DNA of 64,000 nt from assembly GCF_053078305.1 (NCBI RefSeq), contig NZ_CP166879.1; one strand, written 5' to 3'. Numbering within the stretch: the first letter of the stretch is position 1; the number at the start of each line of letters is the position of its first letter. Made by a program: the position numbers. This document shows, piece after piece, positions 1 to 3,000 of the stretch.

Positions 1-3000
1 AACAGCAGTGTGGCGGTGATGCTGGAAGGTCAGCGGGGTCAGTATGTGCATATTCTGCTTACTGTGAGTGGGCATGAGAGCTGGCCGTCGGAGGAGGAGT
101 ATATTCATCCCCGCTGGTATATATCAGTGACTGATGCGGCGGATTTGTTCTATCTGCTGTTGTGGCTGGGAGAGGGGTGATATGAGGAGCGATATCGATT
201 TTCCGGGACCACTGTATCCATCGCTGTCAGATCAAATTGCCAGTGAACCTGTGCTGTTTCTGGCGGGAGCTGTGGGTGTGGCTGTGTTTTCATGGGTGCT
301 TGCGAATTTTTCATGGATGCTTACGAATGTACTGGCCCGGATGCTGTCAGGGTTGTACTCCCGTGTCAGGAGGAGGGTAAAGAACTCTGAAAAATAGCGG
401 GAGAGAGGTGCTGCCCTGATGCCTTCGTTGTATTCTGCGACGCTGTTGGTGCCCGTATTTTGTGCGGGTACCGTACAGAATCACCGCATGAGCCATTGCT
501 GAGACGCTCACTTTTTTTCGCATGCATTACCGGAGTGATGGCTCAGCCGGTGATTTTGGTGTTGAGATGAGAGCCAGTATGGGAAAGCGATATAAAATAA
601 CTGCGACAATAATCAAACCAGGCAATATGCCGGTTCAGTGGCTGCGTTACCAGGATGAAAAAATGACTCAGGATGAATGTGAAAAACTGTTTGCGCCCGC
701 AAAAGAGCCGGGACGGTATATTGGCGTCAGGGTGGAGGACTTCCGGTGTGAAGTGGTGAAGGCCTGAGTATGAAAATAAAAACCTCCGGCGGAGTCGGAG
801 GGGGCAAAAACAGATAGTCCCGGAGTGTATCTGTGTAAATGGTGTTATTGGTATAATAATGGTGGTAAAGACCACGGGAGAATTTATTCATTTTATTCGT
901 CATGAAATCAACGGTAATAGTGTGTTTCTGTGACGGGAATAAAAAAATACAGCACCGCCGATGACCCGGTGCTGAAAACAGGTTAAATGTAGTGGGCACA
1001 TTTCCGGTAATATCAGGAACAGCATGTTATGGTTATAAAAGCATATACCGGGAGTGTGCCCTGGCACTGTGATGTTCTGGTTGTCTTTTGACCATTTTCC
1101 GGGGACGAAATATAAGCTGTTCTGCGTTAACACTTAATAATGAGAGATTGTATGCTGAAAAAAACAATTCTGGCGTTATGTATTTCCGCACCATTTCTGG
1201 TTGCGGGCTGTGATGATGCGACAAAGGAGAATGTAAGTAAGAAGGCGGCAGATATAAAGGAAGCTGCGCAGACTCAACTCAGTGATGTGAAGGATGCCGC
1301 GGAGGAAGTGAAAATGCAGGCTGTCGGAAAGGTGGCAGAGGTTTCTGAAGCGGCTCAGTCCGGGCTCAGCGAGGTGAAGGATGCCGTGGAGGAAGTGAAA
1401 ACACAGGCAGCCGGAAAGGTGGCAGAGGTCTCTGAAGCGGCTCAGTCCGGGCTCAGCGAGGTGAAGGATGCCGTGGAGGAAGTAAAAACACAGGCAGCCA
1501 GAAAGGTGGCAGAGGTCTCTGAAGCGACTCAGTCCGGTCTCAGTGATGTGAAGGATACCGCTCCTGAAAAGGGGGCTGAAATATCCGTAACGGAGGAGTA
1601 AAAGAGCGCCGTCGGTGCAGTTTTTTTCAGCACCCGGTGACACGGAATTTTATATACGGGGCATGTCTGTCTCTTTAATAAATCAGCATATTTACCGGAT
1701 ATCCGATGCCCTGTACCTGCGCTGTCATTATGGCTCTCAAACAGACAATGCTTTGTCTGGAGCACAGGAACTCTGTCATACCTGCCGGCACAATGCTTCT
1801 GATTGCCGGGCATCTGCGCCCTGCTTTTCAGGCTCATACCGGACGTTTCCTTATCGCTGACCTCAGTGAGGAGGTGGTGAGGCGGTATCTGCGGTTCTGC
1901 ACGCCATTATCCGGTATGGCAGTCAGCCCGTCGTCTTTGCTTTTACAGATCCGGCCACAGATGTCCGTGCTGGCGGAATGTCTGATCAGACAACTTATTA
2001 CAGATGAACCATCGCCGGTGTACTTCAGGGATGCGGTGGCTTTTTCCAGTCTGGCGCTGTTTGAGGAACATCCGGATTTCCATGCCCTGCTCACGGGGTG
2101 TATCCGGAGCTGCACTGTCCGGGTGAAGAATATTATCAGTGCTGATTTGTCCCGTCCATGGATGCTGGGTGAAGTGGCCAGTCTGTTATATATAAGTGAG
2201 AGTTTACTGAAGAAAAAGCTTCAGGAAGAGCTGACGACCTTCAGTGAGCTTCTTCTGAAAGAGAGAATGCAGTATGCCGTTCAGCTTTTGTCTGCGGGAG
2301 AAAACCGTATTTCCCGGGTGGCAGAGTTGTGTGGCTATGCCAGTGCTTCTTATTTTATTTCTGTGTTCAGGCGTTATTATAGTATTACCCCGAATCAGTG
2401 GCTTCCTGTGATGCAACCGGATTAATTTGATTCAGATGCAGAGTGTGCGTTATTCAGAGGAAGAGGCTTAATTTTTATCATCCGGTTTTGAATTTATTGC
2501 TGATTGTCCCTTTGCCTTTGCGCACGCTGTCAGATACCAGTTGTCTGACGGAGTCGCATCATGTACCGACTGTTACTGTATTCCTTCCTGATACTACCGG
2601 TGGCAGCATCTGCCGGTACAACAATTTATACCGATTCGCACCAGCGCCCCATGAACCCGCCAGCAGGTGTTCGTGTTGTCCTGCTTGATGCTCCTGAGCA
2701 GACGCAGGATACATTTTTCGGGGTACTTCCCGCAGAGCCTGCAGAAGCATCTGCCCGTGTCATGGAACGGATGCAGTCGCCTGAATGGCAGTCGTTTCAG
2801 GCAGGGCTTGCTGAACACTACCGTGCATTAGCACATGCCTGGTCCCTTGGACTGAAAAAATATCCGGCTGTGGTTTTTGATGACAGTGAAGTGGTCTACG
2901 GAACCACAGACGTGGTGCTGGCAGAACAACTGCGTACAGGGGGAGGGCAGCCATGATTTCCTGCACATCACGTCATCGCGCCGGTGTTCTGCTGTTAAGT

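What the first reader, a model, noticed from the sequence alone, without database searches (positions are those of the whole stretch)
1152..1601. Lipoprotein built from three 29-aa tandem repeats
The 87-bp repeats are nearly identical at DNA level, implying recent expansion and potential length variation. The repeats are amphipathic and Ala/Glu/Lys-rich, as in helical stress or surface proteins.
Basis: seen in the sequence. Interest (0 to 1): 0.3.

Follow-up and report, generated by a model that had tools for sequence, protein, structure and literature searches.

The report
Variable-length helical lipoprotein on an ICE
This is a real but rare orphan E. coli gene, carried as cargo on a conjugative element, that encodes a lipid-anchored protein built from 29-residue helical repeats whose number varies from 0 to 3 between strains; it is a modest curiosity with no known function.

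Summary
Window 1152..1601 (+) is a 149-aa ORF with a textbook lipoprotein signal peptide (LVAG|C). It holds three full 87-bp/29-aa tandem units (86-95% DNA identity) plus partial units at both ends. The predicted length variation is real: E. coli genomes carry 3, 2, 1 or 0 units, produced by several independent in-frame deletions.

New findings:
- Residues +2/+3 are Asp-Asp, the E. coli signal that normally retains a lipoprotein in the inner membrane. The protein should therefore face the periplasm, not the cell surface.
- The mature protein is predicted to be one long helix. Its hydrophobic period is 3.63 residues, which equals 29/8, so each unit adds about 4.3 nm without moving the hydrophobic stripe.
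- The gene is an orphan, found only in one E. coli ICE lineage (18 of 5,426 complete genomes). It sits in a cargo hotspot of the type IV secretion (T4SS) gene cluster that is empty or holds other genes in related ICEs.
- Constraint looks weak: 8 nonsynonymous against 2 synonymous polymorphisms, homopolymer frameshifts and IS insertions.

Function is unknown. My best guess is a dispensable periplasmic envelope protein. Entry exclusion and decay to a non-functional gene are the main rivals. Interest is low to moderate.

The parts
1152..1601 (+). Lipoprotein ORF, 149 aa plus stop
   Evidence: the same ORF is annotated as a hypothetical protein in E. coli RefSeq genomes
1142..1146 (+). Weak Shine-Dalgarno-like GAGAG, 5 nt before the ATG
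   Evidence: read from the sequence; inference
1152..1211 (+). Signal peptide MLKKTILALCISAPFLVAG followed by the lipidated Cys20. The lipobox L-V-A-G-C is at 1197..1211. Asp21-Asp22 (1212..1217) are the +2/+3 inner-membrane retention residues.
   Evidence: read from the translation; the Asp+2 rule is from PMC5727369
1158..1164 (+). A7 tract in codons 3-5. It is A6 in one lineage, which puts the ATG out of frame; those alleles carry 1 or 0 repeats.
1242..1560 (+). 87-bp tandem array: leading partial unit 1242-1277, full units 1278-1364, 1365-1451 and 1452-1538, trailing partial unit 1539-1560
1571..1575 (+). G5 tract near the 3' end. It is G4 or G6 in 4 of the 13 complete-genome primary copies read, which replaces or truncates the last 8 residues (AEISVTEE).
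1606..1627 (+). Terminator-like hairpin (GCGCC-GTC-GGTGC) followed by a T7 run, directly after the stop codon
   Evidence: -15.1 kcal/mol for 1596-1650; z-score only -1.6
1088..1116 (+). Candidate sigma-70 promoter: TTGACC, 17-nt spacer, TATAAG
   Evidence: read from the sequence. The scan did not report it because position 6 of the -10 element is G. Inference only.
994..1061 (.). 16-nt inverted repeat (GGGCACATTTCCGGTA / TACCGGGAGTGTGCCC) upstream of the candidate promoter; a possible operator or structured element
   Evidence: pair I3; -31.1 kcal/mol, z-score -3.6; invariant in 6 alleles
768..1621 (+). Lineage-specific module (upstream region, gene and terminator) with no relatives outside this ICE lineage
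   Evidence: Homology to other DUF1187 loci ends at 767. Homology to the AraC-paralogue locus L008 begins at 1622. The stretch 1000-1290 is found in only 18 genomes.
579..767 (+). Upstream neighbour: DUF1187 family protein (62 aa)
1706..2425 (+). Downstream neighbour: YdeO/GadX-like AraC-family regulator. The ORF starts at 1706; PGAP starts it at 1793.

Best explanation
Window 1152..1601 is a genuine, lineage-restricted gene carried as accessory cargo on a PFGI-1/pKLC102/ICEEc2-type integrative conjugative element (ICE) inserted at tRNA-Phe (pheV) in E. coli.

Shown directly:
- The product has a standard Sec/LspA lipoprotein signal (LVAG|C) and the mature N-terminus Cys-Asp-Asp.
- The rest of the mature protein is almost entirely repeat-derived and is predicted to be one continuous alpha-helix of about 115 residues.
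- The hydrophobic residues (Leu, Val, Ala) recur every 3.63 residues, which equals 29/8.
- Copy number differs between strains (0, 1, 2 or 3 units), with several distinct deletion junctions.
- The gene is absent from related ICEs.

Inferred:
- After lipidation the protein stays in the inner membrane, because Asp at +2 blocks LolCDE export. It would project an acidic amphipathic rod into the periplasm, either self-associating as a nearly straight coiled coil or lying along a surface.
- One unit is exactly 8 helical turns. Unequal recombination or slippage between the 87-bp units therefore changes rod length in steps of about 4.3 nm (roughly 4 to 17 nm overall) without breaking the reading frame or the hydrophobic stripe.
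- The gene is dispensable for the ICE and is under weak constraint.
- My best functional guess, at about 25%, is a non-enzymatic periplasmic envelope or stress-shield protein, possibly controlled by the adjacent YdeO/GadX-like regulator.
For: - Gene anatomy: the ORF, signal peptide, lipobox and Asp-Asp are read. A terminator-like hairpin plus T7 run follows the stop codon.
- Structure: AlphaFold2 gives a single helix over residues 22-136 with mean pLDDT 82. The hydrophobic moment peaks at 99 degrees per residue. The three units point the same way (233-238 degrees) when the helix is set to 99.3 degrees per residue.
- Context: the gene lies between the conjugative ATPase and the TIGR03757/TIGR03756 genes of an ICE at tRNA-Phe.
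- Linkage: it is present in all 18 genomes carrying this ICE lineage and in none of the 15 genomes carrying the ~75%-identical ICEs. In those and other relatives the same slot is empty (L006), holds iha (L007), or holds unrelated cargo in other genera (L018-L021).
- Orphan status: no homologue outside E. coli was found among 5.8 billion clusters or in an exhaustive phmmer scan of 1.84 billion representatives. The plasmid collection gave nothing.
- Copy-number series with distinct junctions.
- Weak constraint: 8 nonsynonymous against 2 synonymous polymorphic sites; A-tract and G-tract frameshifts; IS600 and IS66 insertions.
- Neighbouring regulator: its best NCBIfam matches are YdeO and GadX.
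Against: - There is no evidence of expression or localisation.
- The Shine-Dalgarno-like sequence is weak, and the promoter is only a hand-read candidate.
- The polymorphism pattern fits a decaying, non-functional ORF as well as it fits a dispensable functional one.
- The AraC-family gene has a separate history: a 73%-identical paralogue has no lipoprotein next to it, and homology starts only at 1622. A regulatory link is therefore speculative.
- A net charge of -13 argues against binding to anionic membranes.
- The oligomeric state is untested.
- Amphipathicity is only moderately significant (70 of 2000 shuffles reach the real value).
Confidence: 0.55

Rival explanations
1. It is an entry-exclusion factor of the ICE. 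As a small inner-membrane lipoprotein encoded inside the T4SS gene cluster, like TrbK of RP4, it would block redundant transfer into cells that already carry the element.
For: - It lies within the mating-pair-formation genes.
- It is small and is predicted to be retained in the inner membrane (sequence).
- TrbK is described as a small cytoplasmic-membrane lipoprotein that mediates exclusion. The related ICE PAPI-1 shows an exclusion index of about 298, attributed largely to an LPS change, with no exclusion protein named (PMC5297154).
- Exclusion genes are typically fast-evolving and lineage-specific, which fits the orphan status.
Against: - The slot is a variable cargo site: empty, holding iha, or holding unrelated genes in related ICEs.
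- The gene is frequently frameshifted, shortened or interrupted by IS elements while the ICE persists.
- Five genomes hold two copies of the gene. In the one second ICE copy examined, OkiPb01692, the gene lacks only its last 12 residues.
- There is no sequence match to any known exclusion protein.
Confidence: 0.12
2. It is a non-functional or decaying ORF: either a recently arisen open frame or a former gene now drifting. The repeat variation would then simply be neutral instability.
For: - Polymorphism is 8 nonsynonymous to 2 synonymous sites, and its density is no lower than in the non-coding upstream region.
- In the A6 alleles the ATG is out of frame and no well-spaced ribosome-binding site remains; these alleles have shrunk to 1 or 0 units.
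- G-tract frameshifts occur in 4 of the 13 primary copies read from complete genomes.
- IS600 and IS66 insertions interrupt the gene.
- There are no homologues anywhere else.
Against: - The signal peptide, lipobox and Asp-Asp are complete and correctly ordered.
- A Shine-Dalgarno-like sequence, a candidate promoter and a terminator-like hairpin flank the ORF.
- Eight of the 13 primary copies read from complete genomes, and the window, keep the full 149-aa frame.
- The amphipathic phase is kept across all units.
Confidence: 0.25
3. It is a surface-exposed, antigenically or length-variable lipoprotein of the Ag473 type from Neisseria meningitidis, acting at the host interface.
For: - The best profile match is NCBIfam NF047840, 'Ag473 family lipoprotein' (E = 9.5e-10).
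- Ag473 is a small, Ala-rich surface lipoprotein with no aromatic residues and tandem repeats (PMC3402496).
- The repeat-number and homopolymer variation resembles a contingency locus.
- Most carrier strains are Shiga-toxin-producing E. coli (STEC) isolates from humans and cattle.
Against: - The score is 39.4 bits against a cut-off of 100.
- BLASTP against a validated Ag473 sequence finds only a 15-residue motif (E = 0.029).
- Asp at +2 predicts inner-membrane retention in E. coli.
- The A7 and G5 tracts are short for true phase variation.
Confidence: 0.06
4. The real gene is the antisense ORF at 1176..1643 (155 aa, minus strand), and the plus-strand frame is incidental.
For: The minus-strand frame is open across the whole array. 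A minus-strand hairpin followed by a T-run lies at about 938-973.
Against: - The antisense product has no recognisable features.
- An open antisense frame is expected opposite codons rich in GAR, AAR and GCN.
- The plus strand carries a complete lipoprotein signal, and PGAP calls it in every genome.
Confidence: 0.02

Closest known systems
Ag473 (NMB1468) family lipoprotein of Neisseria meningitidis (NCBIfam NF047840)
   Same: Both are small lipoproteins whose mature part is Ala/Glu/Lys/Val-rich, lacks aromatic residues and is built from tandem repeats. Both contain 'xVKDA / EVKEAV'-type motifs.
   Different: The score of 39.4 bits is below the family cut-off of 100, and there is no significant pairwise alignment. 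The repeat is 29 aa here and 7 aa in Ag473. Asp at +2 here predicts the inner membrane, whereas Ag473 is described as a surface lipoprotein. This gene is ICE cargo in E. coli.
Braun's lipoprotein Lpp / OprI alanine-zipper lipoproteins (NCBIfam NF040598)
   Same: Both are lipid-anchored proteins consisting essentially of one long alpha-helix with a narrow stripe of small hydrophobic residues. Helix length sets a distance in the periplasm (own knowledge for Lpp).
   Different: The match is not significant (E = 1.5, 9.4 bits against a cut-off of 43). Periodicity is 29/8 rather than heptads. The protein is predicted to be anchored in the inner, not the outer, membrane. It ends in ...VTEE, so it lacks the C-terminal Lys used for peptidoglycan cross-linking. 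Its length varies between strains.
TrbK of IncP plasmid RP4, a small cytoplasmic-membrane entry-exclusion lipoprotein
   Same: Both are small lipoproteins encoded among T4SS genes of a conjugative element, and both are (predicted to be) retained in the inner membrane (for the description of TrbK).
   Different: There is no sequence relationship. This gene sits in a variable cargo slot and is absent from related ICEs. It is repeat-built and frequently disrupted.
Amphipathic-repeat helical proteins: apolipoprotein A1/A4/E domain (PF01442), YtxH-like (PF12732), LEA-like and phasin proteins
   Same: All have repeated amphipathic helices in which Lys flanks a Val/Ala face and acidic residues lie opposite. 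Weak profile matches were obtained, along with compositional hits in the exhaustive search.
   Different: All scores are far below the curated cut-offs (19.4 against 90; 19.5 against 37.5). The unit is 29 residues rather than 11 or 22. The protein is lipid-anchored and strongly acidic.

Membership tests
Bacterial lipoproteins (Lgt/LspA/Lnt substrates) | N-terminal signal peptide with a basic n-region, a hydrophobic h-region and a lipobox [LVI][ASTVI][GAS]C | tested here: met
   MLKK-TILALCISAPFLVAG-C, with lipobox L-V-A-G-C at residues 16-20. Read by eye; no dedicated predictor was available.
Bacterial lipoproteins (Lgt/LspA/Lnt substrates) | Actual lipidation and signal peptidase II cleavage | not testable with these tools
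   Needs globomycin sensitivity or palmitate labelling.
Inner-membrane-retained lipoproteins of E. coli | Asp at position +2 (LolCDE avoidance signal) | tested here: met
   The mature N-terminus is Cys-Asp-Asp. The rule is stated in PMC5727369. Localisation itself was not tested.
Ag473 family lipoprotein (NF047840) | Whole-protein score at or above the curated cut-off of 100 bits | tested here: not met
   39.4 bits. An Ag473 sequence recalled from memory scores 161.4 bits, which validates it as a family member. BLASTP of that sequence against this protein gives a best E-value of 0.029 over 15 residues.
Ag473 family lipoprotein (NF047840) | 7-amino-acid tandem repeats (PMC3402496) | tested here: not met
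   The unit here is 29 aa / 87 bp.
Lpp/OprI alanine-zipper lipoproteins (NF040598) | Score at or above the 43-bit cut-off; C-terminal Lys | tested here: not met
   9.4 bits, E = 1.5. The C-terminus is ...SVTEE.
T4SS entry-exclusion lipoproteins (TrbK-like) | Conserved presence and position within the transfer gene cluster of related elements | tested here: not met
   Absent from the ~75%-identical E. coli ICEs and from four related loci in other genera. The slot holds nothing, iha or unrelated genes.
T4SS entry-exclusion lipoproteins (TrbK-like) | Reduces transfer into cells that express it | not testable with these tools
   Needs mating assays.
Core MPF-G / PFGI-1-type ICE transfer proteins (TIGR037xx set) | Match to one of the TIGR037xx conjugation families | tested here: not met
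   No such match for this protein, whereas its neighbour scores 113.7 bits to TIGR03757. The ICE has its own TIGR03751 transfer lipoprotein.
Coding tandem repeats with variable copy number (VNTR) | In-frame unit with copy-number differences between strains at the same locus | tested here: met
   Complete genomes: 13 with 3 units, 1 with 2 units, 4 with 1 unit. Draft genomes: 2 units (P0008) and 0 units (P0022/L022).
Anti-phage defence proteins (PADLOC-DB) | Significant match to a defence-system model | tested here: not met
   Only coiled-coil-type hits at E around 1e-3.

The most novel reading that the evidence does not exclude
This is a recently born orphan gene that works as a length-adjustable periplasmic rod. 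It would be anchored in the inner membrane, and each 29-residue unit (exactly 8 helical turns) would add about 4.3 nm, giving roughly 4 to 17 nm. Recombination between units would then tune how far the rod reaches across the periplasm, for example to interfere with incoming T4SS, contact-dependent inhibition (CDI) toxin or phage machinery, or to buttress the envelope. Homopolymer tracts at either end of the gene would switch it on and off.
Probability: 0.08. Interest if true: 0.55.

Novelty: new member of a known kind. Interest (0 to 1): 0.27.

Why it matters
If the protein is made, it would be a natural series of inner-membrane-anchored helical rods of four defined lengths. That is a ready-made tool and test case for how distances in the periplasm matter. 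It would also be an example of an orphan gene built by tandem duplication on a mobile element.

More practically, three points follow:
- The slot between the conjugative ATPase and the TIGR03757 gene in this ICE family is a cargo hotspot.
- The 87-bp array breaks or may collapse short-read assemblies.
- The array could serve as a simple PCR typing marker for this ICE lineage, whose carriers are mostly STEC.

As it stands, this is an ordinary hypothetical lipoprotein with an attractive repeat geometry and signs of weak selection.

Tried and rejected
- Plasmid collection, by DNA and by protein: no match.
- Rfam on window 1-4000 at E <= 1: nothing.
- PDB sequence search: only insignificant coiled-coil hits, best E = 0.064.
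- PADLOC: only hits at E around 1e-3 to coiled-coil segments.
- Exhaustive phmmer search: every hit outside the E. coli cluster (P0032 to P0054) was a long repeat protein or a YtxH/LEA-like protein of similar composition, not a lipoprotein orthologue.
- Origin of the module via the AraC neighbour: a 73%-identical paralogue (L008) has no lipoprotein, and its homology starts only at window 1622.
- Genome-contig scan with a TIGR03757 alignment: only 4 loci returned. That is enough to show the slot is variable but too few for statistics.
- IS600-junction search to locate second ICE copies: found only the two Okinawa strains. The second copies in three other genomes were not retrieved.
- Not attempted: a fold search, because a single long helix gives meaningless matches; and linker-fused oligomer modelling, because the tool returns no contact information.
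- The promoter scan's only hit near the gene (1127-1156) overlaps the start codon, so I rejected it as this gene's promoter.
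Full report
**1. The observation**

Window 1152..1601 (+) is an ORF of 149 codons, from ATG at 1152 to TAA at 1599-1601. 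Tandem Repeats Finder reports an 87-bp period with 3.3 copies at 1278..1560, 92% matches and score 461. The repeat finder extends the repeat register leftwards to 1242.

The three full units are 1278-1364, 1365-1451 and 1452-1538. Their pairwise DNA identities are 91% (units 1/2), 95% (2/3) and 86% (1/3). A 56-nt core of the unit matches twice in the window within 3 mismatches, against none expected in shuffles. The unit is 29 codons, so every copy-number change stays in frame.

The mature protein is 18.5% Ala, 15.4% Glu, 13.8% Val and 11.5% Lys. It has no aromatic residues and a net charge of -13.

**2. Anatomy of the gene**

The N-terminus is MLKK-TILALCISAPFLVAG-C. This is a basic n-region, a 15-residue hydrophobic core and a canonical lipobox (L-V-A-G-C, residues 16-20).

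The residues after the lipidated Cys are Asp-Asp. Asp at +2 is the LolCDE-avoidance signal that normally keeps E. coli lipoproteins in the inner membrane (rule as stated in PMC5727369). The protein should therefore face the periplasm from the inner membrane rather than reach the cell surface. This is an inference; localisation was not tested.

A weak Shine-Dalgarno-like GAGAG (1142-1146) lies 5 nt before the ATG. I read a candidate promoter by eye: TTGACC, 17-nt spacer, TATAAG at 1088-1116. The scan tool requires T at the last -10 position and did not list it. The scan's only nearby hit overlaps the start codon and cannot serve this gene. A terminator-like hairpin at 1606-1618 followed by a T7 run comes directly after the stop.

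A 16-nt inverted repeat at 994-1009 / 1046-1061 lies upstream. It folds far better than shuffles (-31.1 kcal/mol, z-score -3.6) and is invariant in six alleles. It may be an operator. Rfam finds nothing in window 1-4000.

**3. Predicted structure**

AlphaFold2, run without an alignment because there are no homologues, gives a signal-peptide helix and then one uninterrupted helix over residues 22-136. Mean pLDDT is 82, and above 90 through the repeats.

The hydrophobic moment of this helix peaks at 99 degrees per residue, or 3.63 residues per turn, which equals 29/8. At that pitch the three units point their hydrophobic moments in the same direction (233-238 degrees). At a canonical 100 degrees per residue they drift by only about 20 degrees per unit.

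On the helical wheel, L1, V4, V8, V11, A15, V19, V22 and A26 form a stripe about 90 degrees wide. Lys residues flank the stripe and acidic residues lie opposite it. The moment for three copies of the unit is 0.30. Units with shuffled residue order give 0.18 +/- 0.06, and 70 of 2000 shuffles reach the real value. The amphipathicity is therefore real but not extreme.

The consequence, which is an inference, is that adding or removing a unit changes the length of the rod by 29 x 0.15 nm, about 4.3 nm, without disturbing the stripe. The 0-, 1-, 2- and 3-unit alleles correspond to helices of about 4, 9, 13 and 17 nm. The narrow Val/Ala stripe and the strong negative charge favour a nearly straight coiled coil over binding to a membrane surface, but the oligomeric state is untested.

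**4. Genomic context**

The window is E. coli chromosome. The gene lies inside an integrative conjugative element of the PFGI-1/pKLC102/ICEEc2 type, inserted at tRNA-Phe next to yqgA and speC.

The gene order is: conjugative ATPase, a 125-aa hypothetical protein, DUF1187, this lipoprotein, an AraC-family regulator, TIGR03757, then TIGR03756 (TraU-like). The regulator's best family matches are YdeO and GadX, at 121 and 108 bits, both below the equivalog cut-offs.

The gene is found in 18 of 5,426 complete E. coli genomes, always on the chromosome. Those are exactly the 18 genomes that carry this ICE lineage at 98.8% identity or more in TIGR03757/TIGR03756. Fifteen other genomes carry ICEs about 75% identical, and these do not contain the gene. 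In the two of these ICEs examined, the same slot is empty (APEC E19035, L006) or holds iha (2015C-3121, L007). In four related loci from Acerihabitans, Pectobacterium, Brenneria and Billgrantia the slot holds unrelated genes.

The lineage-specific module is window 768..1621. Homology to other DUF1187 loci stops at 767. Homology to the locus of a 73%-identical AraC paralogue, which has no lipoprotein, starts at 1622. The gene is therefore cargo in a hotspot and not part of the transfer machinery, which has its own TIGR03751 lipoprotein.

**5. Relatives**

There are none outside E. coli.

- The word-indexed search of 5.8 billion clusters returned three clusters, all E. coli alleles or fragments.
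- An exhaustive phmmer scan of 1.84 billion representatives returned the same family. Its only other hits were long repeat proteins or YtxH/LEA-like proteins of similar composition.
- All Pfam matches are far below their cut-offs: Apolipoprotein 19.4 against 90, YtxH 19.5 against 37.5.
- The best NCBIfam match is 'Ag473 family lipoprotein', at 39.4 bits against a cut-off of 100.
- I tested an Ag473 sequence recalled from memory. It scores 161 bits to that model, so it is a valid family member. BLASTP against our protein finds only a 15-residue motif at E = 0.029.
- PDB, PADLOC and the plasmid collection give nothing useful.

The resemblance to Ag473, Lpp, apolipoproteins and LEA/YtxH proteins is one of kind (small helical repeat proteins), not of demonstrable descent.

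**6. Variation between strains**

Among the 18 complete genomes, 13 have 3 units, one has 2 units (O22:H8 strain 154) and four have 1 unit. Draft genomes add a 120-aa 2-unit allele (P0008) and a 63-aa 0-unit allele (P0022). The 0-unit allele was verified in its ICE context on a 386-kb contig.

The 1-unit alleles have at least three different junctions (STEC2018-553, P0004, P0006). Contraction has therefore happened repeatedly. No allele with more than three units was seen.

One caution applies. Many draft proteins are partial because contigs break at the repeat. The abundance of 91-aa alleles in short-read assemblies may partly reflect repeat collapse.

Other changes:
- The A7 tract at 1158-1164 is A6 in the lineage carrying 1 or 0 units. 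This puts the ATG out of frame and leaves only poorly placed alternative start codons.
- The G5 tract at 1571-1575 is G6 in three genomes and G4 in one, which changes or truncates the C-terminal tail. These could be real slippage or homopolymer sequencing errors. Two assemblies of isolates from different countries share the G6 allele.
- IS600 interrupts the 3' end of the gene in a second ICE copy in two Okinawa strains.
- IS66 interrupts the array in another genome.

Among twelve 3-unit alleles there are 10 polymorphic sites in the first 410 nt, 8 of them nonsynonymous. That density is no lower than in the 384-bp non-coding region upstream. The neighbouring transfer genes are 99.6-99.9% identical to the window in 17 of the 18 genomes (98.8% in SCU-171). 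Numbers are small, but there is no sign of purifying selection.

**7. Interpretation**

Well supported:
- This is a real-looking lipoprotein gene.
- Its product is a repeat-built single helix with an 8-turn unit.
- It is accessory ICE cargo.
- Its copy number varies through recombination between units.

Inferred: inner-membrane anchoring facing the periplasm, and possible self-association.

Function is unknown. My best guess (about 25%) is a non-enzymatic periplasmic envelope or stress protein, perhaps under the adjacent YdeO/GadX-like regulator. That regulator has a separate evolutionary history, so the link is weak.

The rivals are:
- A gene that is drifting towards loss (about 25%).
- A TrbK-like entry-exclusion lipoprotein (about 12%). 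The variable slot, the frequent disruption and the genomes holding two copies of the gene weaken this reading. PAPI-1 does show exclusion, but the study attributes it largely to an LPS change and names no exclusion protein (PMC5297154).
- An Ag473-like surface antigen (about 6%), contradicted by Asp at +2.
- The antisense ORF (about 2%).

**8. Verdict**

The 'surface' suggestion is unlikely and the 'stress' suggestion is unproven.

The gene is already present in databases as a hypothetical protein and belongs to no described family. In kind, it is another small helical tandem-repeat lipoprotein. Its notable features are the exact 8-turn repeat geometry, the natural 0-to-3-unit series and the orphan status on an ICE. 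Interest is low to moderate.

Noticed in passing
window 11345..22582 (- strand): A contact-dependent inhibition / two-partner secretion locus is carried on the ICE. It has a ShlB/FhaC-type transporter (20843..22582), a HlyC-family acyltransferase (20306..20833), and a 2981-aa CdiA-like exoprotein with ESPR, TPS, haemagglutinin repeats and PT-VENN (11345..20290). It lies in a window segment (about 11995-22727) with no aligned counterpart in the 50-kb stretch of strain OkiPb01714 compared.
   Followed up: partly
window ~33800..44500: A sialic-acid-type utilisation cluster is carried as further ICE cargo. It includes a NanA-like DHDPS-family lyase (33797..), an MFS transporter (35635..), a NanM epimerase (38737..) and a sialate-acetylesterase-like SASA protein (41707..), plus an S8 subtilase on the minus strand (43450..44493).
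   Followed up: partly
window 938..973 (- strand): An 8-bp GC-rich hairpin (CAGCACCG...CGGTGCTG) is followed on the minus strand by TATTTTTTTATT. It looks like an intrinsic terminator for a transcript running antisense to the lipoprotein gene. The scan missed it because the loop is 9 nt. Part of it (964-978) is an inverted copy of 1624-1638, just after the gene (pair I2).
   Followed up: partly
window 1153..1165 and 1620..1632: A 13-nt perfect complement links the start-codon region (TGCTGAAAAAAAC) and the terminator tail (GTTTTTTTCAGCA), so the two ends of the predicted mRNA could pair. This may be chance, given the A/T runs (pair I4).
   Followed up: no
window 994..1061: A strong inverted repeat (16-nt arms, 36-nt spacer; -31.1 kcal/mol, z-score -3.6) lies upstream of the gene and is invariant in six alleles. 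It may be a regulator binding site.
   Followed up: partly
window 1706..2425: The AraC-family regulator is probably 239 aa, starting at 1706. The N-terminal extension is conserved at the protein level in the 73%-identical paralogue P0056 (L008), whereas PGAP starts the gene at 1793 (210 aa).
   Followed up: partly
L006, L007, L018-L021 (slot between the conjugative ATPase / ~125-aa protein and TIGR03757): This slot behaves as a cargo hotspot across the ICE family. It is empty in APEC E19035 and holds an iha pseudogene in 2015C-3121. In Acerihabitans, Pectobacterium, Brenneria and Billgrantia it holds unrelated ORFs that I did not classify.
   Followed up: partly
L005 (OkiPb01692, 5.16 Mb) and L023: Some genomes carry two copies of this ICE lineage at different sites. 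In the second copy of two Okinawa strains, IS600 cuts the last 12 codons of the lipoprotein gene and truncates the AraC gene. In another genome, IS66 sits inside the repeat array.
   Followed up: partly
window 1176..1643 (- strand): A 155-aa ORF is open antisense to the whole repeat array. It is most likely a by-product of the GAR/AAR/GCN-rich sense codons.
   Followed up: no
protein clusters P0009-P0031: Many database entries for this protein are partial because contigs end inside the 87-bp array. Short-read assemblies break here, and may collapse the repeat, so repeat counts from drafts are unreliable.
   Followed up: no
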